Under the pieces are notes generated by a model. That model ran no database searches. It had not been told where the DNA came from and saw only the letters and a program-made list of their open reading frames with translations. This document shows, in pieces, positions 1 to 18,990 of a stretch of DNA of 64,000 bases. Location: assembly GCA_039621445.1 (NCBI GenBank), contig CP154954.1:26424954-26488953 (forward strand), given 5' to 3'. This DNA is from Euglena gracilis. Taxonomy: Eukaryota. The translations under genes were made by a program, and so were the position numbers. Positions within the stretch are counted from its first letter, which is position 1. The number at the start of each line of letters is the position of its first letter.

Positions 1-2
1 TC

Positions 3-146
3 CGCTATGGGGGCAACATCATCCTCCTCGCACCGGACTGGTCCAAGGTGCTGGCTGCCCTTCAGAGCATCTCCTCGGGCAGCATGACCCTGCCACGGTG
101 CCCTATCTACCGGCACTGCTCCCGGCCCCGGTCTGGGCAACTGTAG
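3..146 (+). pseudogene. C-terminal part of a Dam-like N6-adenine methyltransferase domain in retrotransposon copy 1
   Basis: The frame from nt 3 reads RYGGNIILLAPDWSKVLAALQSISSGSMTLPRCP. This aligns by eye with LTEGGHLFLVCP...LTRVHGRLTLRCA, which follows the NPPF motif in copy 2, and with the 'LILIAPxW' strand of DIRS-type MTases. The NPPF motif itself would lie upstream of the window. Confidence 0.6.
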
Positions 147-655
147 CCCTGCGGATACACCACCCAGGCCACCCTCCACTGAGCAGTGCCCCGGGGCCAG
201 TGAGGCCCGTCTCCCGCGCAAGCTACTCGGAGCGTCCGCCTCGTGCCTCGTACACACCATATCCGCTCGCGCCACTTCTCTCCCTGGGGCAGCACCGCCT
301 CATCAGCAAGCGAACCGCCTTACACGGCGGCGAAACATTCCACCTGGGGGACTACGCGGGCCGGACTTTCCTGATCTACCACGACGCCCTCTGGGACATC
401 CGGGGTACCTCCCCCCACTGGTGCCAATGCTGTGGACTGTGGCAATGGCCATGGGACTGTCCCACGCTACTTCCCCAACACTTTGCCGCACCCAAAACAC
501 CACTTCTCCGGCCTGCCTTCCGGCTGAACCCCACCCCACACTCCTTCCTTGACGCCGTACAAGCACCACCAGCTGAGACAGCGCCGGCTCATCCGTCACC
601 AAAAAACGACCGTCGTAGTCCGTCACTAGGCGGTGCCTACACCTTGGGGACCAAC

Positions 656-709
656 CGTGGACGGGGTAGCCTCCTCACCTGTGGGGATGTGGAGGGGAAC
701 CCTGGGCCA
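656..709 (+). other. 2A (StopGo) ribosome-skipping peptide RGRGSLLTCGDVEGNPG|P
   Basis: Exact D(V/I)ExNPGP motif, in frame in ORF 98-1306; 16/18 identical to T2A (EGRGSLLTCGDVEENPGP). Confidence 0.9.
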
Positions 710-1277
710 GCCAAGCGCCCAGCACCGCCATCCCCCCGCGGAGCGCCAACCGAAACTGAGGCCAGAGAACATGACAACCTTTTCCTGGACCTCGCTCACC
801 CGGAACGTGACGCGGCGATGGTCATCGACGGCGCCAGCCAGGAGTCCAATCTCCGAGGACAGCATGCGCACAGTCTGGTGGTTGGCGCTCCCCCCTGCGA
901 CATAACCCACCTTCTCCAACAGAGAATTCCGACCCTCCTCCACCTGCCCTCGGCCTGCCAACAACCTGTCTTTGACACCATGGCAGACGCCATTACGGCA
1001 TATGTACGAGCACCCACGGACGCGGCATTGTTCGCCGTGCTCTCCTTCCCCAAGCTTGTCCTCCGCCCTGCATCAACAACCAAACCACCGCCACCAGCAG
1101 AACTGGAGTCCATCCTGCTGCGACGCGCCAGACTATTCCGCGAAGGGGATTACGCTACCCTGCTGACAGAGGCCCAAAAGGACACCCAGACACGACACTC
1201 CATTGGGGAAACCAGGGCAGAAAAACGCTCCAGGACACAGCCCACCGCCCTCAGTGAAGCAATGACGAGACGCGTAC

Positions 1278-3110
1278 CTCCCCCCATGGAATCTCGACTG
1301 GCATGAATGTCGACAAGTAATTTCTCGGCCAATAAAATGCCGACAGCCGGCTCCGGTCGAACAGACTTTTGTCGAAGGTTGGTTTTTGGCATGAGTTTCC
1401 CCATAGGTCGCCGCGCTGCTTCCCGCCAGTAAATATGTAACTTACCTGTCCCGACGAGGCTTCTTTTTAAGGTGCAGAGTCTCCCGGGGGGTGGGTCCGG
1501 GCCGGACCCCCCCCCCCGGGGGTGTTCCCCCCGTGACCCACCCGTGACCCCCCCCGTGACCCCCCCGTGACCCGAACAAGGACCCTTTTCGGCGAAATTT
1601 TGTAGGGAAAATTTTTGGCCGGTGATGCCCAATTTGATAAAATTCTCATGCAGATTCCTAATTTTGAGGTGTAAAATTTGCAAATTTGGGCTTGGTGATT
1701 CCTAATTTTGTGTCAAATTCCTAATTTCAGGTGTGGAGATTCCTAATTTGTGGAATTTTTCCACAAAAATTCCGGCTCGGTGATTCCTAATTTTGCCACC
1801 AAAAATGTGGTGTTCCCCCCGTGTCCCCCCCCCGTGACCCCCCCGTGACCCTCCCCGTGACCCGAACCACCCCCCCCCCGGGCGCCGGAGGCGCTGGGTA
1901 TACCTTTTCCGCGCGAAGCGCCGAAAAATTTTGGAAATTGCCTTTAATGGGCCCATTTTTGGGGGGTCCCCGCCCCCCGGGGGGGGTCCAGCCACCCTGC
2001 GTGGATGGGGCCCGGTCCCCCCCCCCGGGGGTCTTAAAAAGAAGCCTGGTCCCGATGACACGACAGAATTGGCCCGAAGTTGTTTGACCCGTGGGCAAAA
2101 AAATCCTCCAAAACTGTGGCACCCGGCTGCCCCCCCGTGGCCAGAAATTGGACCAAAAATGTGAGACCGGTGGCCCCACCCGTGGCCAAAAAAAAAGGCC
2201 CACTGTCCCCAAAGCTGGCGACCAATCTGCCACAACACCCATTCCCCCCCCCCCCCGTTGCCCAAAACAGCCCCACCCGCAGACCCAAAAAGGCCCCCCA
2301 AAACAGGCCAGATGGCACATTGACTCAAAAAAACCCTGATTGCAGATCCAACATGTCACATCCTGGGGCCATACTATTGAGAATCACGAAGCCCCAGAAA
2401 ACACCCTTGCAAACAAAACATATTAAAAAACTTTTGGTTTTCAAGCACAGCAACAGAAAATACAAATACAAGCGATTTCCTGGTCGTATTCCCAACATGG
2501 AGCAGTTTGGCGCGGACATGCTCAGGTCCAGATTAGTAACAAACTCATTCCAATAAGTTCATTTCAGCTCAAGCCACCTGTGTACATGGTCTCAGCACCA
2601 TATTCTTGAGCTTTGCGTGATCATCTGCAACAGCTCCGCACCAACTTCTGCACGATAGACTTCAGAAAATATTCTTGCCTGTGCTCTGCAGCAGAGAAGG
2701 AGGAACTCCCTGACATCATAGTTTGGCAAACCTTTGTCATCATGAGAGCTTGATGCCGAGAGAAACCAGTCAACTCAATAGCCCCTCTCAGCCACTTCTG
2801 CCATCCAGTCTTGTAACTCATCACAGCATCAAACATCCTATTGTGACCAAGATTTCCTGACCACAAACTTGTCCATTCCTCTGAAGACAAAGTTCAGGAT
2901 GTGAAAACATGTGTGGTTGAGTACCTTTGGCTACGGCCAGTCCAATTAGTAATATCCCGCCGCGTTCCCAGTCGCGGTCATCTGTACCAAAGATGTGAAT
3001 ACTTATTTCGAATACTGTGCGAGCTCGAACAGAGAAATATCGACAAGAGAGTGGTTCGGCTTTAGAATTTCTCGAGTTTAGTACGGTCTACATTTGGATA
3101 CCCCTGGTAC
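1278..3110. mobile_element. 1.8-kb composite insertion interrupting retrotransposon copy 1
   Basis: GTAC at 1274-1277 and 3107-3110; removal restores the frame. No TIRs were recognised at the outer ends. Confidence 0.75.
1456..2048. mobile_element. hAT-type MITE
   Basis: TIRs GAGGCTTCTTTTTAAG / CTTAAAAAGAAGCCTG (15/16). 8-bp TSD GTCCCGAC (1448-1455) / GTCCCGAT (2049-2056). The interior resembles 22240-22560. Confidence 0.8.
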
Positions 3111-3325
3111 GCAGCCTCACCGCAGAGGGGGCTTCTGCAAAGGCTGTTCAGATTCTGCTGTCCGAGGGTGCGCACCAACCGGACGACCCAGAGGTCTGGG
3201 GCGCCCTGGAAAAGCCACACCCTGTCGGCAGGAATGTTGACACCAATCGCCTGCCGCGTCACGTCCGCCCTTTCCACGAGAACCACACCCCTAACTGGGA
3301 GGACCGACTGAAGGAAGCCATCCGT

Positions 3326-6300
3326 GGCTCCCGGATCTGGCCTGGAGGGGGGGGGTAGTGGGGGTCGACCATGGTCGACCCACGGTCGCCTCGGTCGCCC
3401 TCGGTCGCTCTCGGTCGGGGGGGGGGGGGGGTTAGGGGGGGGGGGCCACCGAGGCGACCCTGGGGGACGACCGAGGGCGACCATGGTTGACCCCCACCCC
3501 ACGACGGGAAACCCCCCCTTTTGAAGGACGACCATGGCCGACCCCCACCCCACGACGGGAAACCCCCCCTGGAACGGGGGCGACCATGGTCGACCCCCAC
3601 CCCACGACGGGAAAACCCCCCTGGGGGGGGGGGAGGAACCTCGAAATCCCCTGTGTTGCCGAACCGTTTTGGAAGCCAATCCCTTTTGTTGCTCAACTGT
3701 TCCAGGGCCCCAAAATAACAAAATCCCCTGTGTTGCCGAACCGTTTTGGAAGCCAATCCCTTTTGTTGCGCAACTGTTCCAGGGCCCCAAAATAACAAAA
3801 ATCCCCTGTGCTGCCGAACCGTTTTGGAAGCCAATCCCTTTTGTTGCTCAACTGTGCCAGGGCCCCAAAATAACAACATCCCCTGTGCTGCCGAACCGTT
3901 TTGGAAGCGAATCCCTTTTGTTGCTCAACTGTCCCAGGGCCCCAAAATAACAAAAATCCCTTGTGCTGCCGAACCGTTGTGGAAGCCAATCCCTTTTGCT
4001 GCTCAACTGTCCCAGGGCCCCAAAATAACAAAAATCCCCTGTGCGGCCGAACCGTTTTGGAAGCCAATCCCTTTTGTTGCTCAACTGTTCCAGGGCCCCA
4101 AAATAACAACATCCCCTGTGCTGCCGAACCGTTTTGGAAGCCAATCCCTTTTGTTGCTGAACTGTCCCAGGGCCCCAAAATAACAACATCCCCTGTGCTG
4201 CCGAACCGTTTTGGAAGCGAATCCCTTTTGTTGCTTAACTGTCCCAGGGCCCCAAAATAACAAAAATCCCTTGTGCTGCCGAACCGTTGTGGAAGCCAAT
4301 CCCTTTTGCTGCTCAACTGTCCCAGGGCCCCAAAATAACAAAAATCCCCTGTGCGGCCGAACCGTTTTGGAAGCCAATCCCTTTTGTTGCTCAACTGTTC
4401 CAGGGCCCCAAAATAACAACATCCCCTGTGCTGCCGAACCGTTTTGGAAGCCAATCCCTTTTGTTGCTCAACTGTTCCAGGGCCCCAAAATAACAAAATC
4501 TCTTGTGCTGCCGAACCGTTTTGGAAGCCAATCCCTTTTGTTGCTCAACTTTCCCAGGGCCCCAAAATAACAAAATCCCCTGTGCTGCCGAACCGTTTTG
4601 GAAGCGAATCCCTTTTGTTGCTCAACTGTGCCAGGGCCCCAAAATAACAACATCCCCTGTGCTGCCGAACCGTTGTGGAAGCGAATCCCTTTTGTTGCTC
4701 AACTGTCCGAGGGCCCCAAAATAACAAAATCCCCTGTGCTGCCGAACCGTTTTGGAAGCCAATCCCTTTTGTTGCTCAACTGTTCCAGGGCCCCAAAATA
4801 ACAAAATCCCCTGTGCTGCCGAACCGTTTTGGAAGCGAATCCCTTTTGTTGCTCAACTGTGCCAGGGCCCCAAAATAACAACATCCCTTGTGCTGCCGAA
4901 CCGTTTTGGAAGCCAATCCCTTTTGTTGCTCAACTGTCCCAGGGCCCCAAAATAACAAAAACCCCTGTGCTGCCGAACCGTTTGGGAAGCCAATCCCTTT
5001 TGTTGCTCAACTGTCCCAGGGCCCCAAAATAACAAAATCCCCTGTGCTGCCGAACCGTTTTGGAAGCCAATCCCTTTTGTTGCTCAACTGTTCCAGGGCC
5101 ACAAAATAGCAAAATCCCCTGTGCTGCCGAACCGTTTTGGAAGCCAATCCCTTTTGTTGCTCAACTGTTCCAGGGCCCCAAAATAACAAAATCCCCTGTG
5201 CTGCCGAACCGTTTTGGAAGCCAATCCCTTTTGATGCTCAACTGTTCTAGGGCCCCAAAATAACAAAATCCCCTGTGCTGCCGAACCGTTTTGGAAGCCA
5301 ATCCCTTTTGTTGCTCAACTGTCCCAAGGCCCCAAAATAACAACATCCCCTGTGCTGCCGAACCGTTTGGGAAGCCAATCCCTTTTGTTGCTCAACTGTC
5401 CCAGGGCCCCAAAATAACAAAATCCCCTGTGCTGCCGAACCGTTTTGGAAGCCAATCCCTTTTGTTGCTCAACTGTTCCAGGGCCCCAAAATAACAAAAT
5501 CCCCTGTGCTGCCGAACCGTTTTGGAAGCGAATCCCTTTTGTTGCTCAACTGTCCCAGGGCCCCAAAATAACAACATCCCTTGTGCTGCCGAACCGTTTT
5601 GGAAGCCAATCCCTTTGTTGCTCAACTGTCCCAGGGCCCCAAAATAACAAAAACCCCTGTGCTGCCGAACCGTTTGGGAAGCCAATCCCTTTTGTTGCTC
5701 AACTGTCCCAGGGCCCCAAAATAACAAAAACCCCTGTGCTGCCGAACCGTTTGGGAAGCCAATCCCTTTTGTTGCTCAACTGTTCCAGGGCCACAAAATA
5801 GCAAAATCCCCTGTGCTGCCGAACCGTTTTGGAAGCCAATCCCTTTTGTTGCTCAACTGTTCCAGGGCCCCAAAATAACAAAATCTCTTGTGCTGCCGAA
5901 CCGTTTTGGAAGCCAATCCCTTTTGTTGCTCAACTTTCCCAGGGCCCCAAAATAACAAAATCCCCTGTGCTGCCGAACCGTTTTGGAAGCGAATCCCTTT
6001 TGTTGCTCAACTGTGCCAGGGCCCCAAAATAACAACATCCCCTGTGCTGCCGAACCGTTGTGGAAGCGAATCCCTTTTGTTGCTCAACTGTCCCAGGGCC
6101 CCAAAATAACAAAATCCCCTGTGCTGCCGAACCGTTTTGGAAGCCAATCCCTTTTGTTGCTCAACTGTGCCAGGGCCCCAAAATAACAACATCCCTTGTG
6201 CTGCCGAACCGTTTTGGAAGCCAATCCCTTTTGTTGCTCAACTGTCCCAGGGCCCCAAAATAACAAAAACCCCTGTGCTGCCGAACCGTTTGGGAAGCCA

Positions 6301-9300
6301 ATCCCTTTTGTTGCTCAACTGTCCCAGGGCCCCAAAATAACAAAATCCCCTGTGCTGCCGAACCGTTTTGGAAGCCAATCCCTTTTGTTGCTCAACTGTT
6401 CCAGGGCCCCAAAATAACAAAATCCCCTGTGCTGCCGAACCGTTTTGGAAGCGAATCCCTTTTGTTGCTCAACCGTCCCAGGGCCCCAAAATAACAACAT
6501 CCCTTGTGCTGCCGAACCGTTTTGGAAGCCAATCCCTTTTGTTGCTCAACTGTCCCAGGGCCCCAAAATAACAAAAACCCCTGTGCTGCCGAACCGTTTG
6601 GGAAGCCAATCCCTTTTGTTGCTCAACTGTCCCAGGGCCCCAAAATAACAAAAACCCCTGTGCTGCCGAACCGTTTGGGAAGCCAATCCCTTTTGTTGCT
6701 CAACTGTTCCAGGGCCACAAAATAGCAAAATCCCCTGTGCCGCCGAACCGTTTTGGAAGCCAATCCCTTTTGTTGCTCAACTGTTCCAGGGCCCCAAAAT
6801 AACAAAATCTCTTGTGCTGCCGAACCGTTTTGGAAGCCAATCCCTTTTGTTGCTCAACTTTCCCAGGGCCCCAAAATAACAAAATCCCCTGTGCTGCCGA
6901 ACCGTTTTGGAAGCGAATCCCTTTTGTTGCTCAAATGTGCCAGGGCCCCAAAATAACAACATCCCCTGTGCTGCCGAACCGTTGTGGAAGCGAATCCCTT
7001 TTGTTGCTCAACTGTCCCAGGGCCCCAAAATAACAAAATCCCCTGTGCTGCCGAACCGTTTTGGAAGCGAATCCCTTTTGTTGCTCAACTGTGCCAGGGC
7101 CCCAAAATAACAACATCCCTTGTGCTGCCGAACCGTTTTGGAAGCCAATCCCTTTTGTTGCTCAACTGTCCCAGGGCCCCAAAATAACAACATCCCCTGT
7201 GCTGCCGAACCGTTTTGGAAGCCAATCCCTTTTGATGCTCAACTGTTCCAGGGCCCCAAAATAACAAAATCCCCTGTGCTGCCGAACCGTTTTGGAAGCC
7301 AATCCCTTTTGTTGCTCAACTGTCCCAGGGCCACAAAATAGCAAAATCCCCTGTGCTGCCGAACCGTTTTGGAAGCCAATCCCTTTTGTTGCTCAACTGT
7401 TCCAGGGCCCCAAAATAACAAAATCCCCTGTGCTGCCGAACCGTTTTGGAAGCCAATCCCTTTTGATGCTCAACTGTTCCAGGGCCCCAAAATAACAAAA
7501 TCCCCTGTGCTGCCGAACCGTTTTGGAAGCCAATCCCTTTTGTTGCTCAACTGTCCCAGGGCCCCAAAATAACAAAAACCCCTGTGCTGCCGAACCGTTT
7601 GGGAAGCCAATCCCTTTTGTTGCTCAACTGTCCCAGGGCCCCAAAATAACAAAATCCCCTGTGCTGCCGAACCGTTTTGGAAGCCAATCCCTTTTGTTGC
7701 TCAACTGTTCCAGGGCCACAAAATAGCAAAATCCCCTGTGCTGCCGAACCGTTTTGGAAGCCAATCCCTTTTGTTGCTCAACTGTTCCAGGGCCCCAAAA
7801 TAACAAAATCTCTTGTGCTGCCGAACCGTTTTGGAAGCCAATCCCTTTTGATGCTCAACTATTCCAGGGCCCCAAAATAACAAAATCTCTTGTGCTGCCG
7901 AACCGTTTTGGAAGCCAATCCCTTTTGTTGCTCAACTGTCCCAGGGCCCCAAAATAACAAAAACCCCTGTGCTGCCGAACCGTTTGGGAAGCCAATCCCT
8001 TTTGTTGCTCAACTGTCCCAGGGCCCCAAAATAACAAAATCCCCTGTGCTGCCGAACCATTTTGGAAGCCAATCCCTTTTGTTGCTCAACTGTTCCAGGG
8101 CCACAAAATAGCAAAATCCCCTGTGCTGCCGAAACGTTTTGGAAGCCAATCCCTTTTGTTGCTCAACTGTCCCAGGGCCCCAAAATAACAAAATCTCTTG
8201 TGCTGCCGAACCGTTTTGGAAGCCAATCCCTTTTGATGCTCAACTGTTCCAGGGCCCCAAAATAACAAAATCTCTTGTGCTGCCGAACCGTTTTGGAAGC
8301 CAATCCCTTTTGTTGCTCAACTGTTCCAGGGCCCCAAAATAACAAAATCTCTTGTGCTGCCGAACCGTTTTGGAAGCCAATCCCTTTTGTTGCTCAACTG
8401 TCCCAGGGCCCCAAAATAACAAAATCCCCTGTGCTGCCGAACCGTTTTGGAAGCGAATCCCTTTTGTTGCTCAACTGTGCCAGGGCCCCAAAATAACAAC
8501 ATCCCCTGTGCTGCCGAACCGTTGTGGAAGCGAATCCCTTTTGTTGCTCAACTGTCCCAGGGCCCCAAAATAATAAAAATCCCTTGTGCTGCCGAACCGT
8601 TGTGGAAGCCAATCCCTTTTGCTGCTCAACTGTCCCAGGGCCCCAAAATAACAACAATCCCCTGTGCTGCCGAACCGTTTTGGAAGCCAATCCCTTTTGT
8701 TGCTCAACTGTTCCAGGGCCCCAAAATAACAAAATCCCCTGTGCTGCCGAACCGTTTTGGAAGCCAATCCCTTTTGTTGCTCAACTGTTCCAGGGCCCCA
8801 AAATAACAAAATCCCCTGTGCTGCCGAACCGTTTTGGAAGCGAATCCCTTTTGTTGCTCAACTGTCCCAGGGCCCCAAAATAACAACATCCCTTGTGCTG
8901 CCGAACCGTTTTGGAAGCCAATCCCTTTTGTTGCTCAACTGTCCCAGGGCCCCAAAATAACAAAAACCCCTGTGCTGCCGAACCGTTTGGGAAGCCAATC
9001 CCTTTTGTTGCTCAACTGTCCCAGGGCCCCAAAATAACAAAATCCCCTGTGCTGCCGAACCGTTTTGGAAGCGAATCCCTTTTGTTGCTCAACTGTTCCA
9101 GGGCCACAAAATAGCAAAATCCCCTGTGCTGCCGAACCGTTTTGGAAGCCAATCCCTTTTGTTGCTCAACTGTTCCAGGGCCCCAAAATAACAAAATCCC
9201 CTGTGCTGCCGAACCGTTTTGGAGGCCAATCCCTTTTGATGCTCAACTGTTCCAGGGCCCCAAAATAACAAAATCCCCTGTGCTGCCGAACCGTTTTGGA

Positions 9301-11588
9301 AGCCAATCCCTTTTGATGCTCAACTGTGCCAGGGCCCCAAAATAACAAAATCTCTTGTGCTGCCGAACCGTTTTGGAAGCCAATCCCTTTTGTTGCTCAA
9401 CTGTACCAGGGCCCCAAAATAACAAAATCCCTTGTGCTGCCGAACCGTTTGGGAAGCGAATCCCTTTTGTTGCTCAACTGTCCCAGGGCCCCAAAATATC
9501 AAAATCCCCTGTGCTGCCGAACCGTTTTGGAAGCCAATCCCTTTTGTTGCTCAACTGTCCGAGGGCCCCAAAATATCAAAATCCCTTGTGCTGCCGAACC
9601 GTTGTGGAAGCCAATCCCTTTTGTTGCTCAACTGTCCCAGGGCCCCAAAATAACAAAATCCCCTGTGCTGCCGAACCGTTTTGGAAACCAATCCCTTTTG
9701 TTGCTCAACTGTTCCAGGGCCACAAAATAGCAAAATCCCCTGTGCTGCCGAACCGTTTTGGAAGCCAATCCCTTTTGTTGCTCAACTGTTCCAGGGCCCC
9801 AAAATAACAAAATCTCTTGTGCTGCCGAACCGTTTTGGAAGCCAATCCCTTTTGATGCTCAACTGTTCCAGGGCCCCAAAATAACAAAATCTCTTGTGCT
9901 GCCGAACCGTTTTGGAAGCCAATCCCTTTTGTTGCTCAACTGTCCCAGGGCCCCAAAATAACAAAATCCCCTGTGCTGCCGAACCGTTTTGGAAGCGAAT
10001 CCCTTTTGTTGCTCAACTGTGCCAGGGCCCCAAAATAACAACATCCCCTGTGCTGCCGAACCGTTTTGGAAGCGAATCCCTTTTGTTGCTCAACTGTCCC
10101 AGGGCCCCAAAATAATAAAAAGCCCTTGTGCTGCCGAACCGTTGTGGAAGCCAATCCCTTTTGCTCCTCAACTGTCCCAGGGCCCCAAAATAACAACAAT
10201 CCCCTGTGCTGCCGAACCGTTTTGGAAGCCAATCCCTTTTGTTGCTGAACTGTCCCAGGGCCCCAAAATAACAAAATCGCCTGTGCCGCCGAACCGTTTT
10301 GGAAGCCAATCCCTTTTGTTGCTCAACTGTTCCAGGGCCCCAAAATAACAAAATCCCCTGTGCTGCCGAACCGTTTTGGAAGCGAATCCCTTTTGTTGCT
10401 CAACTGTGCCAGGGGCCCAAAATAACAACATCCCTTGTGCTGCCGAACCGTTTTGGAAGCCAATCCCTTTTGTTGCTCAACTGTCCCAGGGCCCCAAAAT
10501 AACAAAAACCCCTGTGCTGCCGAACCGTTTGGGAAGCCAATCCCTTTTGTTGCTCAACTGTCCCAGGGCCCCAAAATAACAAAATCCCCTGTGCTGCCGA
10601 ACCGTTTTGGAAGCCAATCCCTTTTGTTGCTCAACTGTTCCAGGGCCCCAAAATAACAAAATCCCCTGTGCTGCCGAACCGTTTTGGAAGCGAATCCCTT
10701 TTGTTGCTCAACTGTGCCAGGGCCCCAAAATAACAACATCCCTTGTGCTGCCGAACCGTTTTGGAAGCCAATCCCTTTTGTTGCTCAACTGTCCCAGGGC
10801 CCCAAAATAACAAAATCCCCTGTGCTGCCGAACAGTTTTGGAAGCGAATCCCTTTTGTTGCTCAACTGTGCCAGGGCCCCAAAATAACAACATCCCTTGT
10901 GCTGCCGAACCGTTTTGGAAGCCAATCCCTTTTGTTGCTCAACTGTCCCAGGGCCCCAAAATAACAAAATCCCTTGTGCTGCCGAACCGTTTGGGAAGCG
11001 AATCCCTTTTGTTGCTCAACTGTCCCAGGGCCCCAAAATAATAAAAATCCCCTGTGCTGCCGAACCGTTTTGGAAGCCAATCCCTTTTGTTGCTCAACTG
11101 TTCCAGGGCCCCAAAATATCAAAATCCCTTGTGCTGCCGAACCGTTGTGGAAGCCAATCCCTTTTGTTGCTCAACTGTTCCAGGGCCCCAAAATATCAGA
11201 GTCCCCTTCGAAATGGGGGGGGGGTTCCCGTCGTGGGGTGGGGGTCGACCATGGTCGCCCCCCGACCAAGGGGGGTTTCCCGTCGTGGGGTGGGGGTCGA
11301 CCATGGTCGTCCTTCAAAAGGGGGGGTTTCCCGTCGTGGGGTGGGGGTCGACCATGGTCGCCCCTGAAAGGGGGGGGGGTTTCCGTCGTGGGGTGGGGGT
11401 CGACCATGGTCGCCCATGAATGGGGAGGGTTTCCCGTCGTGGGGTGGGGGTCGACCATGGTCGCCCTCGGTCGACCCCCACGACCGAATACGGCCTGGCC
11501 TCGGTCGACCCCCACGACCGAGGGCGACCGTGGGTGGACCATGGTCGACCCCCACTACCCCCCCCCCCCCAGGATGTAGCTACCCCTC
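3326..11588. mobile_element. Non-autonomous DNA transposon (Mutator-like by TSD length) carrying a satellite array
   Basis: Perfect 9-bp TSD GCCATCCGT (3317-3325, 11589-11597). Inverted repeats start at CCTGG (3341) and end at CCAGG (11573). Subterminal repeats GACCATGGTCGACCCCCACCCCACGACGGGAAACCC are direct on the left and inverted on the right. No transposase ORF. Confidence 0.85.
3644..11198. repeat. 77-bp tandem satellite, about 98 copies
   Basis: Unit AAATCCCCTGTGCTGCCGAACCGTTTTGGAAGCCAATCCCTTTTGTTGCTCAACTGTCCCAGGGCCCCAAAATAACA with a few recurring variant sites. ORF calls recur every 77 nt. Confidence 0.97.
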
Positions 11589-13052
11589 GCCATCCGTCGC
11601 TTCCCACGGCCATCGGCGCCGGGGCCATCTGGGTTGCGACCAAGCCACCTCCAAGACTGCCTGCGGAGACCAGGTCGAGGAGCAAGGCTGATCACTGCCC
11701 TCGCACTCCTGATTCGAGTCTGGGTGGACGGCCAGCTACCGCCCCACCACCAGGCTTCCCTGCCCTTGTCAAGTGGCGGCTACGGCCTCCGCATCCCAAC
11801 CTTCACACAGCCTGCGGCCAGGATTTCCTGCCTTGCAGACTTCTACTCCGATGGGGCACGACGGGTTGGCGTTCCCGGCTACGCAACCTCCCCACAGCCC
11901 TCCCTCATTACGCCTGTCCTGGACGACCTCAGGGGCAGGCTAGGGGCCAATCACGCCACGGTCACCACCTTCCTCAGCAACCCTCAACGTATCGCGTCTG
12001 CGGACTCAGAACCCCGGAAACAGAAATGGTGGAATCACGAGCTGGGCAACAAGACGATGGATGACCTGGTGGACCAGGCTCGTCCCCGGGACCAGAACCG
12101 CCTCCTCGAACAGGCCACAGGCTTCGGACATGGTTGGATGGCAGCAACCCCCTCCAACAACTCCCACACCACTTTCTCCAGCGAAGAGTACACCTTGGGG
12201 TTGAAGTGGTGGCTAGGTCTCCCGGTGCTGAACGACGTCAGCCAACCATGCACGGGATGCAACCAGCCCCTGGACAAGGAAGGTGACCACCTCCTTTGCT
12301 GTCGCAGGAATAACTTCGCCACCCGCCACAACGCTGTTCAGGACGCACTGTTCCAAACCTTGTCCAACAGCGGACAGCGGGTACAGAAGGAGGTTTCCCT
12401 GCCAACGGCCCAAGATAGCCACCTCCGCCCGGCCGACCTCCTCCTAGACTGTTGGTCTGACGGGAAGCCGACAGCGCTGGATGTCACCGTCTGCCACGGA
12501 TGGCAGGCGACTGAACACACTGCCACCCGCGAACGGTGGAGATCCTTCCTGAAGAGAAGGGAGGAGGCCAAAAAGCAGAAGTACAACATCCCATGCCAGC
12601 AAGCAGGCTAGGGCTTCACGCCCTTCGCCCTGGGAACGTGGGGGGGCATGGGGCCCGAGACAGCCAAAACCCTCAGCCGGGTGGCGAAACGCGCCTCGTC
12701 CTGGCAACAGGGGGCGGAACGAGAATTAAAGGAGGCGGAGATTTACCAGAATGTCGCAATCGCCCTATTACGCGAAGTCTTCCATCTCTTGCAACCCAAG
12801 CACATTCTCCGTTAAAAAAAAAACCAACAACACACACACACACAACCACGACCCACCGCCACTCTCCCCGTCAAGCCACATACCGCCGCCCTGCCCCCGA
12901 CCCCGCTACACTCCAGCACTGCCGTTCCCCTCAGCTCCCCGCTCCCCCTCGCCCCTCTACCCTCGCACAACGTATTGAAGGTGGGCCTAGCCCATTTTCC
13001 GCCCGCCGTCCTATACCCCAGCTGTAAATTATCGTAACCGCCTGCGGACCTA

Positions 13053-13106
13053 CAAATCCAGTAGGCTGTGCCACTGGTCGGTGGATTCGGTTCGCCCCAC
13101 CACCGC
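13053..13106 (+). other. Conserved 54-nt 3'-UTR motif of the CRE-like elements (putative structured RNA)
   Basis: CAAATCCAGTAGGCTGTGCCACTGGTCGGTGGATTCGGTTCGCCCCACCACCGC is identical at 17989-18042, with a diverged copy at 60703-60753. Stems CCAGT/ACTGG and GGTGG/CCACC. Confidence 0.7.
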
Positions 13107-13680
13107 GCTTTCTCTGACAGAAGTTCTCGCCGTGTGAGGCCGTACCCCAAGGGGTGTACTTGAGCCATTGGCGTAGCCAATCCGCACGTTTTCGGACCAT
13201 CTGCCTGCGGAAAAGAAAATACGCTCGGAGCAGGAATTTTGTGGCCGCACAAATCTGGCTGCGCCGCTGGAGCAACTTTCTCTTCCGCCCTACGGAGGGG
13301 AGGTTTTTCGTCTGCACGCTCTGTTTGCAAAAAATAACACAGACCTCGTCCCTTCAGAACACTCTCCTCCTTCTCTCTACTCACACTTCCTGCTGCACCA
13401 CGGAACACCTGTCTACCCCCCCCCCACCAGCCCGCCTTCCGCCTTTGTGAGCCCAAAGGACCAACCCGCTCTGCCGGATGTTGCCCAAGTTCGTCCGGGC
13501 GTCCACCCTTCCGCTAAAACCCCGGTGGTTCCCATGACAGGGCAGGGGTATCTGTTGATACCGCCGTACCATCCCTCTGCGTGTCCACCACCAGTGGGCC
13601 GCTCAAGCCACGCTGGCCTAACCCGCCCAAATTTCTCTCTCCTCCCAGTGGGAGCCTCCGACACCGGACTGCCTCTCGCG

Positions 13681-13957
13681 GATGACTACATACTCGAGCC
13701 CGGCTGGTTCCGTGTCGCCGTCCACACGCTCACCTACTTCCCTCCCTATTATTGACGCCTTTGCGGCGCCGCACAACAGCCAATGCCCAGCCTTCTGGGA
13801 TAAACACCAGAACGCATTTCTCCAAGATTGGAGCAGGCCGCGGCCTATTTGGGTCAACCCTCCGTTTTCGCTTCTTCCTCTCGTCCTCCGCAAACTTCTG
13901 ACGGAAGGGGGCCATCTGTTCCTTGTCTGCCCTTCCGATCACCCTGCGCGACCCTGA
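13681..13957 (+). pseudogene. Dam-like (phage/DIRS-type) DNA N6-adenine methyltransferase domain
   Basis: DDYILEPGWFRVAVHTLTYFP[frameshift]PIIDAFAAPHNSQCPAFWDKHQNAFLQDWSRPRPIWVNPPFSLLPLVLRKLLTEGGHLFLVCP contains IDxFA...N, NAFxxDW and the catalytic NPPF motif. Confidence 0.85.
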
Positions 13958-14259
13958 CCCGAGTCCATGGGCGGCTCACCCTCCGTTGTGCCGTCTCGTA
14001 AATCAACCGTTCCTGGAGTGACAGCGACAGTTTTGTAAAAATCATCCTCCGCTCTTCAGCGGAGCTCCGCTCTGGAACGTCCCCCCGAAACAATTTACCC
14101 CCCCCCTTTATTGTCCCACCGACCTGCCCCCGGGAGGCCCGGCCGGACAATAAAGGGGCGCCACGTCCGGCGTCCACTCGTTGCGCCTTCCGCTTCCCCA
14201 CCTCCGTTCGGGAACGCTGGCTGCCGCCCTTTTCCTCCCTAACCGCCCTTCTGCGCTCT

Positions 14260-14311
14260 GGCAGAGGTTTCGCCCTGCTCTCCTGCGGCGACATCGAGTA
14301 ATCCGGGGCCC
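14260..14311 (+). other. Frameshifted 2A-like peptide GRGFALLSCGDIE-x-NPG|P
   Basis: GGC AGA GGT TTC GCC CTG CTC TCC TGC GGC GAC ATC GAG T AAT CCG GGG CCC: the x codon is reduced to one base. The NPGP frame runs without a stop into the C2H2 finger and ORF 14537-15028. Confidence 0.8.
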
Positions 14312-17300
14312 AACACCAATCGGGACTCCGCCAAAAAGACACGCCAGAGTCGGGAGTCACAAGCCCCACACCTTCTATACCCCACACAGGTCTGTCTCAA
14401 GAAATGGCGTTGGCCACCATCCTCCCCAGCAGCAACGACGCTGCAACCCGGCCTGCCGTCCGACCTTGGTCCGGGGTTTTCCTTTGCTTCCCATGACACC
14501 TGCCCCTTTGCAGATTGCCCACGCTCGCGGACAACCATGACCCGCTCTCAGGTCCTATCTCACGTCTCTCAACACGTCGCCGCCGGACGATCACCCACCC
14601 CCGAATTTTTGCGAGCTACTGCGACCACGACTTGCGCCATTTGTCGGACCTTGCTACGGGCAAGAGAACGTTGCCAATGCCCCCACCAGGGTGCCTCGGC
14701 CGTCCTCGCTTCTTCACACCCCTCTGTCCCACTCCCCTCTTCATCGCACCAACCCGTCGGGAATGGCACTCCTCTATCTCTCCCGTGCCCAGATATGCAG
14801 CCCGATCTGCAGGTGGTTCTCTCCACCAACTGCCCCACTCTTCGCCGTATCCCAGTGTCAAGTCGTCACGCCATTTGTGACGCCCTTGCATCCTCCATTC
14901 AGACCTTTCTCCGAGCCCAAACCTGGGAAGCTCTACACCGCCTGTTCATTTTTCCGAAACTCGTTCTTGGTGCCCCTCCCAAAACCTCGTCTTCCCATCA
15001 ACACACATTGCATTGCCTCCTGGAATAGCCGGGATGGTAGTACGGACGAGCAAAACCAAGGCCAATGCCACTCCTTACAAGAGCAGCATTGTACTGGCGG
15101 TGGGAAGCGGGTGTCCCAAAGTGTGTGCTGATGGAAGACGAAAAGGCGATCCCGGAAGGCCAGCACCGGGGACGAGGTGTGTCGGTGTATCCATTTGAAT
15201 GACTTGTGCCAGTCCACTAGGGATTCAGGTGGCACGCAGGAGAGTTTGCTGCTTTGTTTGATCCGCTTCGCTCTGACAGACGGCGAAAGCGGCCCACCAC
15301 CCGCGCCAACCCCTCTGGCTCTACTTCTGACTCTGTGGCACGTGGTCAGGTTCGCGGACTCGTTGAAGAAGGGGCCCTCGGCAAGGCTGTGGACGCTCTC
15401 ACCTCTTTGCCCCTGGCATCGCCCGGGGATCCAGCAGTGATGCAGAAGCTCCTTTCGCTCCATCCACAGGGGTCCCCATTACGAGCCAGTTTGCCGCTGC
15501 CTGGGGCAGGCAATACTCCACAAACTACTGACTTCAACTGGTCGTTAATTGTGCAAGAAGCTGCAGCCTCTTTCCCCCGTGGCAGCGCCCCCGGCCCATC
15601 TGGTCTCCGTCCACAACACCTTCGGGACTTGTTGGACCGTGAGGCCGGGACAGGCCCGCTACACACAGCCTTGGGGTCCCTGGCTCAGAAGGCCTGGGAG
15701 TGTTCTCTGCCAGCAAAAGCCTCGATCGTTTTTGGTACGTCAAATCTGATCCCACTTACCAAAAAGGATGGCGGTCTTCGGCCGATCGACGTGGGGGATT
15801 GCCTCCGGCGCTTCATTGGGAAAATGCTGTTGCGACACCCGCAGTGCAAAGCGGAAATGTCTCAGCTGTTCCCGCAGCAATTGGGAGTGGGGGTGCGCTA
15901 CGGTGCGGAGACAGTCGGGTTGGCGGTGCAGGCCGCACTGGCGTCTCTGCCAGTGGATGGCGATTGGGTGGTTTTCCAGGCCGACGTTTCCAACGCCTTC
16001 AACACCATTGATCGATCCGCGTTCCTGCAGGCATCCCTGGACCTCTGCCCGTCCCTTTACAACTGGCTCCGATTCTCCTACGGAGAAGACGTCCCACTTC
16101 TTTGCTAGGGTGACGTGCTGTGTCACAGCAGGACCGGTGTCCATCAAGGGGACACATGTGGGCCCATTGCCTTTGCCTTGGGTCTCCATCAGGCGCTGCA
16201 ACAGGCTTCGGCCAATTTGCCCAACACGGTGTGGCAGGCATGGTACTTGGACGACGGTACTGTCATCGGCCCTGCCGTTGATGTTCTGCCTTTCACGGCT
16301 TCTCTGGCCACGGCACTTGGCAGCGTTGGGCTCCACCTCAACCCCTCTAAGTGTGCCTTGTGGGGACTAGGTGTACCCTGTGCCACTCCGAAACCCCCGG
16401 CTCTTCAGATCCTGCCTCCCGACCACCTTGCACAAAACTTCCCGGTCACTCCATGGGGACCGGGCAGTGGCATCCTGTGCCTAGGGGTACCTTGCGACTA
16501 TCCTGGTGACTGCACCTTTTCTGACACCACGTGGGCCAAGGCATCTGAAAAATTTCAAGCTACCATCTCGCGCCTCCAACAACCGCTGGATCCCCAACTC
16601 CAACATTGTTTGCTGCGCAACTGTCTGGATGGCTGCCGCGTCACGCACCTTCTGCGTCAGACAAACATTTCCGGGACACACAGTGTGCAAGTGATCTCTG
16701 ACTCCATCCGGAGTGCTGCCTGTGACATTGTGGGGGCACCCCTGTCTACCTTGCATTGGAAACAAATCACCTTGCCGTGCAATAAGACAGGGTGGGGCAT
16801 CACAGACCCCCAGTTGAAAAGACCAGCTGCCCGTTTGGCTGCTTGCGTGGGTTTTTCCCAACGAGCGCCCGGCTTCAATATCCCTCCGCCCTGGCGCATG
16901 CTCCCGCTACCAGATACCATCCCCGTCGCCAAACTGGCTCGTGACACCTTGGGCCCGCACAGCGAACCATTGGCTTCCTGGATCGCCAACCCTTCTTCCT
17001 TGGCCTGTTCCACCCCAGATCACTCCACTCAATCGTGGTTGGCCGAACGTTTCCACGCCGTTCGCGTGGCAACTTTGGAGGAGGGTGCACCTCTTCGGGA
17101 CATTGACAGGCTTCGTTGCCAGTCCTCTGCCTTCCTTCAAAATTGGATGACCGTCTTACCATCCAGGTCGGTGAATACCGTCCTAGCTCCGGACAAATAC
17201 AGACTGCTTCTACGCTTCTGGACTGGCTTACCCCTGATCCCAACAACGGACATGCTTCTGTGCCTTTTGTGTGCTGAGGCAGTCGATCCATTTGGTGATC

Positions 17301-17836
17301 ACCTCCTGGCTTGCAGAAGGAATGGCATAACAGAAAGACACAACTGTGTTCGTGACGCCATTTTTGACCTGTGCCAACGCTCAGGCATCACTCTTCGCAA
17401 AGAACAGGGATGCGAGGGTGGCACCCGTGACGCTGATCTCCTCCTCCTGGGGTGGAACAAAGGGAAGCATCTCGCTGTTGATGTCACCATTGAACACCCG
17501 CTGGCCCCATCACGGTGGCCTCTGAACTTGACCCGAGTTCAGCGTACTTTACCAGACACTGAAATGCACAAGAGAACACAAGCCGAAGAACGGTGCGCCC
17601 GCCACCAGTGGGAGTACATTGGGGCTGCATTTAACCCCTGGGGGTGCACAGGACCGGCAGCCTCCAAACTCCTACGCGATGTCCTACGCCTCGCGACCAA
17701 TTCATATTCTGGAACAGCCAAACAACAAAAATTTCAGGAATTGACCGAAAACTTGGCCATCACACTGGCCCGTGCAGTTGCACGACAGCTGCGGTTGGTC
17801 GAAAGAGCCACAGATCGTATGATCCTGAACTCGTAA
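14300..17836 (+). pseudogene. Zinc finger - reverse transcriptase - RLE polyprotein of copy 2
   Basis: CPFADC-x12-HVSQH; SAPGPSGLRPQHL; LIPLTKKDGGLRPI; DVSNAFNTIDR; GVHQGD; WYLDDG; CLLC...DHLLAC; RHNCVRD; RDADLLL; AVDVTI. Disrupted near 15010-15255 and by a TAG at 16106-16108. Confidence 0.92.
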
Positions 17837-18134
17837 GGTGATAATGCTCCCCGTTGCACCAGCCGGAGAACACCGCGCATGCACACTTCACACCTCTCCA
17901 CCCATCACTCTCTGCTTGGGCTTTGCCCTTGCTCTCACCGCTCGACCCACACTCCTTCGTTGTATATAGCCTCGCACCCTCGAACACTCAAATCCAGTAG
18001 GCTGTGCCACTGGTCGGTGGATTCGGTTCGCCCCACCACCGCACAACTTTCTGTGGTAGGGCTCAGCAGAGCCACGGAACCGTGTGAGGTATGGTTCGTC
18101 TGCATATCAAAAAAAAAACCCACTACAAACATTA

Positions 18135-18990
18135 GGCCGCAAGAACGGCCTCACCGAAAGACATAACTGCCTCCGGGACGCCCTCGTCGATCTCTGCCAG
18201 CAAGAAGGCATTTAGGCATTTCTGTTCGCAAGGAGTAGAGCTGCGAATCTGGCACTCGCGATGCCGACCTCCTACTGCTCGGTTAGAACAGAGGAGGCAC
18301 CTTGCCGTAGACGTTACCATCGAACACCCTCTGGCCCCCCTCCCGGTGGCCTCTGAATCTCACCCGTGTCTCGCACTTTGCCTGATGCTGAGCTGAGCTG
18401 CATACCCTCACCCCCCTCTCAAAGTGGCCACCCTCCAAGCACCAAGGGGAGTAACCTGAAATTTTCCAATTTTTTTGGCCACTTTGGGGGGACACTTTGA
18501 GGAGGGGGGTGAGGGTAAAAGGAACCAGGCAGAGGACAGATGTTCGCAGCATCAGTGGGGCTACTCCGGTGTGGCTTTCAACCCGTGGGGCTATCCTGGC
18601 CCTGCCGCTGCCAAGCTCCTCCATGACATCCTCCACATGGCTACAAACCCTTTCGCCAGCACTGTCAAACAACGCCGGCTCCAGGAACTGACAGAGAACC
18701 TATCTGTCACACTCGCCCGGGCAGTTGCCCGCAACTGCGCCTGGCCGAAAGAGCCACAGACCGGATGCTTTTATCCACGTGATAATTCACCCTAACGCCG
18801 GTGCCCTCACACTCCCCCCCCTCTCTTTTTCCCCTCCTCTCCCTTTCACACTGGTCCTCTGGGCCATCACACATAAACCTATACTCCCCAAACCCCCAAC
18901 CTTGAGCTTTGCTCAAGCGTCCGCTCGCTTACTCGCGCTTGTTGTATTTGTACATACTCCTAACCAAACCAGGACTATCCACAACTGGCC
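18135..18990 (+). mobile_element. 5'-truncated third copy (RLE region plus part of the 3' UTR), related to copy 2
   Basis: TERHNCLRDAL...TRDADLLLLG...AVDVTIEHPLAP and QWGYSGVAFNPWG...LTENLSVTLARAVAR closely parallel 17330-17800; frameshifts and a small insertion near 18400-18515. Confidence 0.85.

What the first reader, a model, noticed from the sequence alone, without database searches (positions are those of the whole stretch)
656..709. Near-T2A skipping peptide in a retrotransposon, with a cryptic frameshifted homolog in the second family
RGRGSLLTCGDVEGNPGP is 16/18 identical to Thosea asigna virus 2A. Copy 2 has GRGFALLSCGDIE-x-NPGP at the equivalent position (14260-14311), missed by the ORF track because of a 2-nt loss. 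Conservation of this motif amid unalignable flanks implies function and suggests a viral origin or strong convergence.
Basis: partly seen in the sequence, partly recalled or inferred. Interest (0 to 1): 0.75.

Follow-up and report, generated by a model that had tools for sequence, protein, structure and literature searches.

The report
T2A-like skip peptide in Euglena retrotransposons
Two dead copies of R2-like jumping genes in a Euglena-type genome carry a virus-style "2A" ribosome-skipping signal between a DNA-methyltransferase part and the reverse transcriptase, a real and conserved feature of this group of elements but an example of something already known in other retrotransposons.

Summary
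Observation confirmed. 656-709 encodes RGRGSLLTCGDVEGNPGP in a long open frame, 16 of 18 residues as in T2A as printed in PMC13431600. At 14260-14311 GRGFALLSCGDIE is followed by one base and then NPGP in the next frame. Chance expectation for the core motif is 0.0002 per window.

Both sit between a Dam-like adenine methyltransferase segment and the N-terminal domain of an R2-like reverse transcriptase/restriction-like endonuclease protein. Of 32 near relatives with over 100 residues upstream of that domain, 22 carry D[VI]ExNPGP there, mostly as GRG-x(1-2)-LL[ST]CGD[VI]ExNPGP. All 80 more distant metagenome loci lack it.

In contigs of three public runs, 99-100% of the depth bridging 14295/14296 has two extra bases that restore GDIESNPGP and the frame. 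The 2-nt loss is therefore private to this rearranged, stop-bearing copy, or is an assembly error.

Most likely these are class A 2A/StopGo sites that release the methyltransferase from the RT protein; activity is inferred, not shown. 2A in non-LTR elements is known. This scan had already noted the same element type elsewhere in this genome. Viral origin remains untested.

The parts
2..655 (+). Copy 1 (family 1): C-terminal part of the Dam-like methyltransferase segment plus linker. The window cuts the element just after where relatives have their NPPF motif.
   Evidence: P0049, P0050 and P0051 align to query residues 38-425 from their residue 113 or 59; these proteins have NPPF at residue 57 or 2. 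Pfam Dam (PF05869) in P0049 and P0050.
656..709 (+). Copy 1: intact class A 2A/StopGo peptide RGRGSLLTCGDVEGNPGP, predicted to skip between G (704-706) and P (707-709).
710..1276 (+). Copy 1: N-terminal domain of the RT protein (..IPTLLHLP..FPKLVL..), the first product downstream of the 2A.
   Evidence: P0040 aa 954-1303; 77 database proteins carry this domain.
1277..3013 (.). Insertion that interrupts copy 1, about 1.7 kb, not identified. The open frame runs 30 nt into it and stops at 1304-1306.
   Evidence: the P0040/P0050 alignment breaks at 1276 or 1240 and resumes at 3014 or 3107; no Pfam hits.
3014..3334 (+). Copy 1: continuation of the RT protein (P0040 aa 1283-1378).
3335..11588 (.). 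Second insertion in copy 1: a 77-bp satellite (98 copies, 3644-11207) flanked by mutually reverse-complementary 52-bp repeat arrays.
11589..12824 (+). Copy 1: RT remnant (core deleted: P0040 aa 1426-1738 have no match), CCHC and restriction-like endonuclease, in-frame stop at 12609-12611, poly(A) at 12815-12824.
13622..13957 (+). Copy 2 (family 2): N-terminal half of the Dam-like methyltransferase with WVNPPF.
   Evidence: PF05869, 40.5 bits against a cut-off of 28.1, E 3e-10..
14260..14311 (+). Copy 2: broken 2A. GRGFALLSCGDIE in one frame, a single base at 14299, then NPGP (14300-14311) in the next frame. Other genomic copies have 2 more bases here and read GDIESNPGP.
14312..15025 (+). Copy 2: N-terminal domain of the RT protein, in the frame of NPGP.
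   Evidence: (P0034 aa 1168-1342).
15029..15229 (-). Copy 2: 201-nt piece coding the methyltransferase C-terminal half (..FVFHQHTLWDTR..CCSCKEWHWPW..), misplaced and inverted. In other copies it lies in + orientation 10 nt upstream of 14159.
   Evidence: (joints 14159|15029 on opposite strands; 15025 to 15229 skipping 203).
15230..17836 (+). Copy 2: RT, CCHC (about 17261-17314) and restriction-like endonuclease, with an in-frame stop at 16106-16108. Natural stop at 17834-17836.
18110..18119 (+). Copy 2: poly(A) tail after a 3' UTR of about 270 nt.

Best explanation
The two motifs are class A 2A (StopGo) ribosome-skipping peptides of two families of R2-like non-LTR retrotransposons, that is, elements with an RT plus a C-terminal CCHC and restriction-like endonuclease. 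The elements have one long reading frame that encodes a Dam-like adenine methyltransferase ahead of the RT protein. The 2A lies in the linker between the two. During translation the ribosome would release the methyltransferase ending in ...NPG and go on from the proline, so that the RT-endonuclease protein is made as a separate chain from one mRNA. Shown here: the motif, its position, its conservation in near relatives, and the domain identities. Inferred: the skipping itself. Both copies in the window are dead. Copy 1 is split by two insertions, has lost its RT core and has an internal stop; its 2A is still intact. Copy 2 is rearranged, has internal stops and has lost 2 nt inside the 2A. That loss is a private lesion of this copy (or an assembly error), not a programmed frameshift, because the bulk of family-2 copies in public data keep the codon and the frame.
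For: Motif and chance: (expected 0.00022 per window; 0 hits in 300 shuffles).

Position: upstream of the copy-1 2A, P0001 residues 38-218 align to relatives that carry NPPF and Pfam Dam. In copy 2, 13622-13957 scores 40.5 bits on PF05869.

Downstream: the domain is shared by 77 database proteins. It is followed by an RT-endonuclease whose family profile hits R2 structures 9nl3_A and 9dou_A at E about 1e-21 over profile positions 22-654. C385, C388, H398, C402, R410, H411, D443, D458, E485 and K488 are invariant.

Conservation: 9 of 18 long relatives of the RT have D[VI]ExNPGP upstream of YxDD, several of them 2 to 4 times. Of 32 relatives with more than 100 residues upstream of the post-2A domain, 22 have it within 200 residues. 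All 12 proteins that carry NPPF (P0040, P0041; P0049, P0050, P0051, P0053, P0055, P0056, P0065, P0083, P0119, P0120) have a 2A after it, and 6 of them also have one before it. In 62 unique 18-mers, L at -12 occurs 51 times, L at -11 43 times, S/T at -10 50 times and C at -9 50 times, and 44 contain GRG.

Family 2 intact elsewhere: two bases put in behind 14295 or 14296 in X1 (1859 + 19.8 of 1894 depth), X2 (3228 + 1310 of 4538) and X12 (120.2 + 86.5 of 206.7). X12 record 11 joins the methyltransferase piece, 10 nt and 14159-14353 with a letter count that keeps one frame (201 + 10 + 2 = 213). The 15025 / 14 letters / 15229 joint also keeps the frame.

Plausibility of activity: T2A processed at 80-90% in Trypanosoma cruzi, another euglenozoan (PMC10830525, passages). 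An F2A-linked hptII-gus construct gave resistant, GUS-positive Euglena (PMC8230907, passages).
Against: No experiment or RNA or protein data for these elements was seen. Only contigs of DNA-type runs were laid, and no RNA run.

Both copies in the window are pseudogenes, so nothing at this locus is being expressed as described.

Ten of the 32 near relatives lack a canonical motif within 200 residues upstream. Of these, P0034 and P0094 have one further upstream, P0032 has DVQPNPGP, and 7 have none in the sequence available.

None of 80 more distant metagenome loci (22-51% identity), 19 of them with more than 1800 nt upstream, has [DG][VI]ExNPGP on the coding strand. Only 3 have any [NH]PGP. The motif is therefore not needed by this RT type in general.

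A 2026 preprint reports that most retrotransposon 2A-like peptides it tested lowered protein abundance rather than simply skipping.
Confidence: 0.8

Rival explanations
1. The peptide works mainly as a translational throttle. The ribosome releases the upstream product and often does not resume, or the nascent chain lowers output, so that little RT-endonuclease is made relative to methyltransferase. Separation of the two proteins would be secondary. This overlaps with the best explanation rather than excluding it.
For: Odon et al. 2013 (PMC3708506, passages) relay the proposal that the L1Tc 2A down-regulates the products downstream. The bioRxiv preprint 10.64898/2026.06.17.732966 (section 13 read) reports reduced protein abundance for 59% of ORF2p-associated and 70% of ORF1p-associated 2A-like peptides tested. 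Relatives often carry 2 to 5 motifs in a row, which would multiply any drop-off.
Against: T2A itself, 16 of 18 identical, is an efficient separator in the systems cited. Nothing here measures ratios.
Confidence: 0.3
2. The 2-nt gap at 14299 is not biological. It is an assembly or consensus error at a GAGA-type site, and the locus really reads GDIESNPGP.
For:: in contigs that bridge the site, 99-100% of the depth in X1, X2 and X12 has the two bases. No bridging contig with the window's version was evident in X12 (0 of 206.7).
Against: The depths are in the hundreds to thousands, so the contigs come from many copies and say little about this one locus. Logan contigs drop rare variants, as the tool text states. 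The same copy has other lesions that are typical of decay: an in-frame stop at 16106-16108, a stop at 15026-15028, a 2-nt difference at 13728 and a misplaced inverted 201-nt piece.
Confidence: 0.2
3. The motif is an inherited relic without skipping activity on Euglena ribosomes, or a chance or contaminant sequence such as a laboratory T2A cassette.
For: No activity data. T2A is a common laboratory sequence: 127 papers print the 12-residue stretch.
Against: Chance is excluded. The peptide is embedded in frame between element domains. It recurs in 33 unrelated environmental proteins, with variation at position x and in the two residues after GRG but a fixed core. That is the pattern of purifying selection on a working signal, not of a cassette. 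The second family differs at 6 of the 17 comparable positions. 2A works in all eukaryotic systems cited.
Confidence: 0.05

Closest known systems
Thosea asigna virus 2A (T2A), a class A 2A/StopGo peptide of an insect RNA virus
   Same: 16 of 18 residues are identical to the copy-1 peptide, including the whole GRGSLLTCGDVE stretch upstream of the core. The core is GDVExNPGP. The upstream part is leucine-rich and ends in CG before the D, as in the L-rich upstream motif groups of PMC12846837 (section 10 read).
   Different: The host is a cellular retrotransposon, not an RNA virus. Position x is G. Most relatives of the element use a register with two residues, not one, between GRG and LL: 37 against 11 of 62, and copy 2 does too. 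No evidence on descent in either direction.
2A-like sequences of APE-type non-LTR retrotransposons (L1Tc and Ingi of trypanosomes; Rex1, L2, Crack and CR1 clades; Odon et al. 2013, PMC3708506; Heras et al. 2006 as cited there)
   Same: A canonical 2A in frame in the N-terminal part of the single long ORF of a non-LTR element. Copies are heterogeneous, with mutated motifs in part of the family (L1Tc about 57.5% DIEQNPGP, 20% with N to H). L1Tc and Ingi are also from Euglenozoa.
   Different: Those elements have an APE endonuclease. Here there is no APE hit in six relatives, three of them carrying the RT, and the endonuclease is C-terminal and R2-like. Here the 2A separates an accessory enzyme (Dam-like methyltransferase) from the RT protein. 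The upstream sequence differs.
2A-like peptides ahead of ORF2p with fused accessory domains (deubiquitinase, PPR) in Haematococcus Dualen/RandI and Symbiodinium elements; RT-bearing 2A contigs from metatranscriptomes (bioRxiv 10.64898/2026.06.17.732966 and 10.64898/2026.09.24.754024)
   Same: The layout is accessory domain, then 2A, then RT protein in protist LINE-like elements. Of 1,547 class A 2A contigs, 330 carry an RT, mostly non-LTR-like.
   Different: In the passages and sections I read, no methyltransferase, Euglena or RLE-only clade is mentioned ('methyltransferase' 0 and 'euglen' 0 occurrences in the first preprint).
DAM-carrying retrotransposons (DAM-DIRS, DAM-LTR; bioRxiv 10.64898/2026.05.21.726589)
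   Same: Prokaryote-type Dam domains carried by retrotransposons, with Euglena gracilis named as a rich and complex case. The preprint notes Dam elements whose RT branches with LINE/L1-like RTs.
   Different: That preprint classifies them as DIRS or LTR elements. In the text searched it has no occurrence of '2A-like', 'skipping' or 'NPGP'. Here the element has a poly(A) tail and an R2-like RT-endonuclease.
R2 and other RLE-type non-LTR retrotransposons (R2, R4, CRE, NeSL, Hero as listed in PMC3708506)
   Same: Single ORF, RT followed by CCHC and a restriction-like endonuclease. The best solved-structure matches are R2 proteins. Poly(A) 3' end.
   Different: In what I read, no 2A and no methyltransferase is described for these clades. 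The clade assignment within RLE elements was not made here (no tree).

Membership tests
Class A 2A / StopGo peptide | C-terminal core D(V/I)ExNPG|P | tested here: met
   Copy 1: DVEGNPGP at 686-709. Copy 2 as it stands: not met (DIE, one base, NPGP out of frame). It is met in other genomic copies of family 2 (DIESNPGP after the two extra bases).
Class A 2A / StopGo peptide | Leucine-rich upstream stretch, with (A/S/C)G directly before the D | tested here: met
   SLLTCG-D (copy 1) and ALLSCG-D (copy 2). Definitions taken from PMC12338488 and PMC12846837 section 10.
Class A 2A / StopGo peptide | In frame inside one ORF, with coding sequence on both sides | tested here: met
   Copy 1: frame 2..1306 with homologous domains on both sides. 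In 25 relatives the motif lies inside the predicted protein upstream of the same domain. Copy 2: broken.
Class A 2A / StopGo peptide | Peptide-bond skipping between G and P during translation | not testable with these tools
   Needs a reporter assay or N- and C-terminal protein sequencing.
RLE-type (R2-like) non-LTR retrotransposon | Reverse transcriptase domain of the non-LTR type | tested here: met
   Pfam RVT_1 in the window ORF only below the cut-off (22 bits against 29.6), but above it in relatives P0040, P0050, P0034 and P0035. The family profile hits R2, then LINE-1 ORF2p, then group II intron RTs.
RLE-type (R2-like) non-LTR retrotransposon | C-terminal CCHC motif followed by a restriction-like (PD..D/E..K type) endonuclease, and no APE domain | tested here: met
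   Invariant C385, C388, H398, C402, R410, H411, D443, D458, E485 and K488 in 18 sequences. The alignment to R2 chain 9nl3_A runs through this region to chain residue 1131. No APE/Exo_endo_phos Pfam hit in the six relatives scanned. Which residues are catalytic is recalled from the R2 literature, not tested.
RLE-type (R2-like) non-LTR retrotransposon | Poly(A) or A-rich 3' end, 5'-truncated copies, no LTRs | tested here: met
   A runs at 12815-12824 and 18110-18119, directly after the 3' UTRs. There are 3'-only fragments at about 12980-13335 and 18120-18800. LTRs were not searched for systematically.
Dam-type N6-adenine DNA methyltransferase (Pfam PF05869) | Match to the family model above its cut-off, and the (D/N)PP(Y/F) motif | tested here: met
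   13622-13957: 40.5 bits against 28.1; WVNPPF. Only profile positions 31-75 of 169 are matched, and the C-terminal half is diverged. Enzyme activity not testable.

The most novel reading that the evidence does not exclude
GRG-x(1-2)-LL[ST]CGD[VI]ExNPGP, the T2A type of 2A, is the ancestral polyprotein separator of a widespread and so far undescribed subclade of R2-like retrotransposons of protists, which use it, often several times per ORF, to cut out a captured Dam methyltransferase and other modules. The insect tetravirus T2A and these elements would then share the peptide by horizontal transfer rather than by convergence, in one direction or the other.
Probability: 0.15. Interest if true: 0.7.

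Novelty: new member of a known kind. Interest (0 to 1): 0.4.

Why it matters
It extends 2A/StopGo use from APE-type LINEs to R2-like elements with a restriction-like endonuclease. It also shows such elements using 2A the way RNA viruses do, to cut a multi-enzyme polyprotein (methyltransferase | RT-endonuclease) out of one ORF. That fits an organism whose mRNAs are trans-spliced and carry one frame.

It gives a natural set of T2A-like variants: 62 different 18-mers. These could serve as a map of allowed substitutions.

The near-identity with T2A beyond the functional core gives the old question of where viral and cellular 2As come from a concrete pair to test.

For annotation: the broken motif in copy 2 is decay, not recoding.

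Tried and rejected
Whole-genome search for the motif: no genome is held for this window, so copy counts for the two families could not be made.

Pfam on 69 further ORFs of the window gave nothing that bears on the finding.

phmmer of the window RT ORF alone against PDB sequences gave 0 hits; the family profile was needed.

Programmed +1/-2 frameshifting at 14299 was considered and rejected, because other copies simply have the two bases and the copy has other lesions.

Host-gene fusion release (2A freeing the element from an upstream host exon) was rejected, because the upstream sequence is the element's own methyltransferase.

An upstream ORF from 13177 was first taken as part of copy 2. This was rejected because about 12980-13335 repeats the 3' UTR of family 2 and ends in an A run; the first ATG after that is at 13535.

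A frame count across the 13952|15229 joint did not close. That joint was seen in one contig of X16 only, and runs X1, X2 and X12 continue after 13952 with other letters, so the middle of the canonical methyltransferase is not in the window.

Look-up of earlier notes by sequence found nothing.

The first alignment was too diverse for the locus scan.

I did not test for a spliced leader at the 5' ends.

Full report
**What is there.** Window 656-709 (+) translates to RGRGSLLTCGDVEGNPGP. It lies in a frame that is open from the window's first bases to 1306. At 14260-14298 the sequence reads GRGFALLSCGDIE and then hits TAA. One base further, 14300-14311 reads NPGP in the frame of the downstream ORF 14243..15028. 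Codon x is thus represented by a single base (14299), a loss of 2 nt. The six frames of the window contain one complete D.E.NPGP and two GD[VI]E, which are exactly these two sites. From the six-frame residue frequencies, 0.00022 occurrences of D[VI]ExNPGP are expected, and 300 block shuffles gave none.

**What the motif sits in.** tblastn with long environmental relatives shows two retroelement copies on the + strand.

Copy 1 runs from the window's start to a poly(A) run at 12815-12824.
- It is split by an unidentified 1.7-kb insertion (1277-3013).
- It is split again by an 8.3-kb insertion (3335-11588). That insertion is a 77-bp satellite of 98 copies, flanked by mutually reverse-complementary 52-bp repeat arrays.
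- It lacks the RT core: P0040 residues 1426-1738 have no match.
- It has an in-frame stop at 12609-12611.

Copy 2 runs from about 13336 to a poly(A) run at 18110-18119.
- It has stops at 15026-15028 and 16106-16108.
- It has the 2-nt gap in the 2A.
- A 201-nt piece lies inverted at 15029-15229.

Both copies are therefore dead.

**Domains.** An alignment of the window's two RT/endonuclease ORFs with 16 relatives has invariant C385, C388, H398, C402, R410, H411, D443, D458, E485 and K488. Its profile matches solved R2 retrotransposon proteins (9nl3_A, 9dou_A) at E about 1e-21, from the RT fingers to the C-terminal endonuclease. LINE-1 ORF2p scores far weaker. Six relatives, three of them carrying the RT, show only RVT_1 and Dam in Pfam, with no APE domain. 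Upstream of the copy-2 2A, 13622-13957 matches Pfam Dam (PF05869) at 40.5 bits against a cut-off of 28.1 and contains WVNPPF. Upstream of the copy-1 2A, residues 38-218 of the open frame align to the region after the NPPF motif of P0049, P0050 and P0051. The window therefore cuts copy 1 inside its methyltransferase. In both families the 2A lies in the linker between a Dam-like methyltransferase and the N-terminal domain of the RT protein.

**Conservation in near relatives.** The two copies do not align as DNA at the 2A. In protein the linker aligns only through GRG..LL.CGD.E, while the domain after the 2A is 29% identical.
- Among 18 long relatives of the RT, 9 carry D[VI]ExNPGP upstream of YxDD, several of them two to four times.
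- A HMMER search of 1.84 billion representatives with the copy-1 frame gave 76 hits. Of these, 27 contain the canonical D[VI]ExNPGP, and two more have only HPGP in another context, which makes 29 with [NH]PGP.
- Counted strictly: 77 database proteins contain the post-2A domain, and 32 of them have more than 100 residues upstream of it. Of those 32, 22 have a canonical motif within 200 residues.
- Of the 10 misses, P0034 and P0094 have canonical motifs further upstream, P0032 has DVQPNPGP, and 7 have none in the sequence available. These proteins were called by automatic gene finders and often start at an internal M.
- All 12 proteins that carry NPPF have a 2A after it, and 6 of them have one before it as well.

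The 62 distinct 18-mers give the pattern GRG-x(1-2)-L-L-[ST]-C-G-D-[VI]-E-x-N-P-G-P. The register with two residues after GRG is commoner (37 of 62) than the T2A register with one (11 of 62). Position x is free. Copy 1 uses the T2A register and copy 2 the other.

**A limit on the conservation.** A scan of JGI metagenome contigs with the RT alignment returned 80 more distant loci, at 22-51% identity in the best segment. None has [DG][VI]ExNPGP on the coding strand, although 19 have more than 1800 nt upstream of the RT match; the opposite strand also has none. Only 3 have any [NH]PGP, none in a 2A context. Only 2 show the post-2A domain and none shows the Dam part. The 2A, like the methyltransferase, marks the subclade near the Euglena elements, not R2-like elements at large.

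**The 2-nt gap.** Logan contigs of four public runs were laid on 13600-15300 at 85% likeness. Depths of hundreds to thousands show a high-copy family. At the gap, contigs have two extra letters:
- GA behind 14295: X1 1859 of 1894 depth, X2 3228 of 4538, X12 120.2 of 206.7.
- AA behind 14296: X1 19.8, X2 1310, X12 86.5.

Either version turns the site into D-I-E-S-N-P-G-P and puts NPGP in the frame of GDIE. Together they account for 99-100% of the depth that bridges the site in these three runs. In X16 (a run labelled as another organism) one contig continues after 14294 with letters that read ..ESNPRP.., a mutated copy.

The same contigs show that the inverted 201-nt piece normally lies in + orientation 10 nt upstream of 14159. 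In X12 record 11 the letter count 201 + 10 + 2 = 213 keeps one frame into the 2A. They also show that 15025 normally joins 15229 through 14 letters, which again keeps the frame and removes the stop at 15026-15028.

So the prevailing family-2 element has one continuous frame: methyltransferase C-half, linker, 2A, RT protein. The window's copy is a decayed, rearranged version of it. Contigs cannot tell whether the gap at this very locus is real or an assembly error; I put about 0.2 on error.

**How it most likely works.** These are class A 2A/StopGo sites. The nascent ...LL[ST]CGD[VI]ExNPG in the exit tunnel prevents bond formation with the prolyl-tRNA. The upstream chain (methyltransferase plus a 2A tail) is released, and translation continues from the proline with the RT-endonuclease protein. 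This mechanism is taken from PMC12846837, PMC12338488 and PMC3708506 (passages and sections read). The motif, its place, its conservation and the domain identities are shown here. The skipping itself is inferred. Its plausibility in this lineage rests on two reports: 80-90% T2A processing in Trypanosoma cruzi, and a working F2A-linked two-gene construct in Euglena gracilis (cleavage was not shown in the passages I saw). A throttle function is a live, non-exclusive alternative.

**Comparison with what is known.** 2A-like sequences are established in:
- APE-type non-LTR elements: L1Tc, Ingi, Rex1, L2, Crack and CR1.
- Dualen/RandI and other protist ORF2p-like proteins with accessory domains.
- Hundreds of RT-bearing metatranscriptome contigs.

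Dam domains in retrotransposons, with Euglena gracilis as a complex case, are described for DIRS and LTR elements. In that text there is no occurrence of '2A-like', 'skipping' or 'NPGP'. Three literature searches turned up no paper that joins 2A with R2/CRE-type elements, with a methyltransferase or with Euglena retroelements.

Earlier notes of this scan had already described the same element type elsewhere in this genome: an R2/CRE-like LINE with a Dam-like methyltransferase bracketed by 2A sites. My tests agree with them and add three things: the family-wide T2A-type consensus, the absence of the motif in distant relatives, and the contig evidence that the broken motif is intact in other copies.

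**Verdict.** This is a real, conserved 2A signal and a new member of a known kind. The 'cryptic frameshifted homolog' is a decayed copy of an intact family motif. The viral-origin idea is untested. Interest is moderate.

Noticed in passing
window 3335-11588: The larger insertion in copy 1 is a 77-bp satellite (98 copies, 94% matches, 3644-11207). It is flanked by 52-bp repeat arrays at 3474-3632 and 11217-11466 that are reverse complements of each other. The layout resembles a foldback-type transposon with an expanded internal array.
   Followed up: partly
window 12815-18800: Elements lie head to tail. After the copy-1 poly(A) comes a 3'-UTR-only fragment (about 12980-13335) that shares a 45-nt stretch with the copy-2 3' UTR at 17990-18042. 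Then comes copy 2, then its poly(A), then another 3' fragment (18120-18800, matching P0041 aa 1648-1719). This suggests repeated insertion next to or into earlier copies.
   Followed up: partly
window 13953-14169 and 15029-15229: In copy 2 a 201-nt coding piece of the methyltransferase has moved about 870 nt downstream and is inverted. At its old place stands other sequence, including a stretch (14056-14169) whose summed contig depth is 10 to 60 times that of the rest of the element, with short hairpin-like ends. It looks like a separate, very abundant small repeat at the breakpoint.
   Followed up: partly
window 13728: Most public contigs have two extra letters behind 13728 or 13729, so this copy carries a second 2-nt difference from its family just ahead of the methyltransferase motif.
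   Followed up: no
relatives P0034, P0035, P0056, P0086, P0119: Some environmental relatives carry 3 to 5 2A motifs in one protein, in places only 21-45 residues apart (for example P0035 at 605 and 626). P0035 uses a different upstream type (W..D...DGDVExNPGP) in all four of its sites.
   Followed up: no
window 1277-3013: The 1.7-kb insertion in copy 1 has open frames of about 200 aa on the minus strand with no Pfam match. Its nature is unknown.
   Followed up: no
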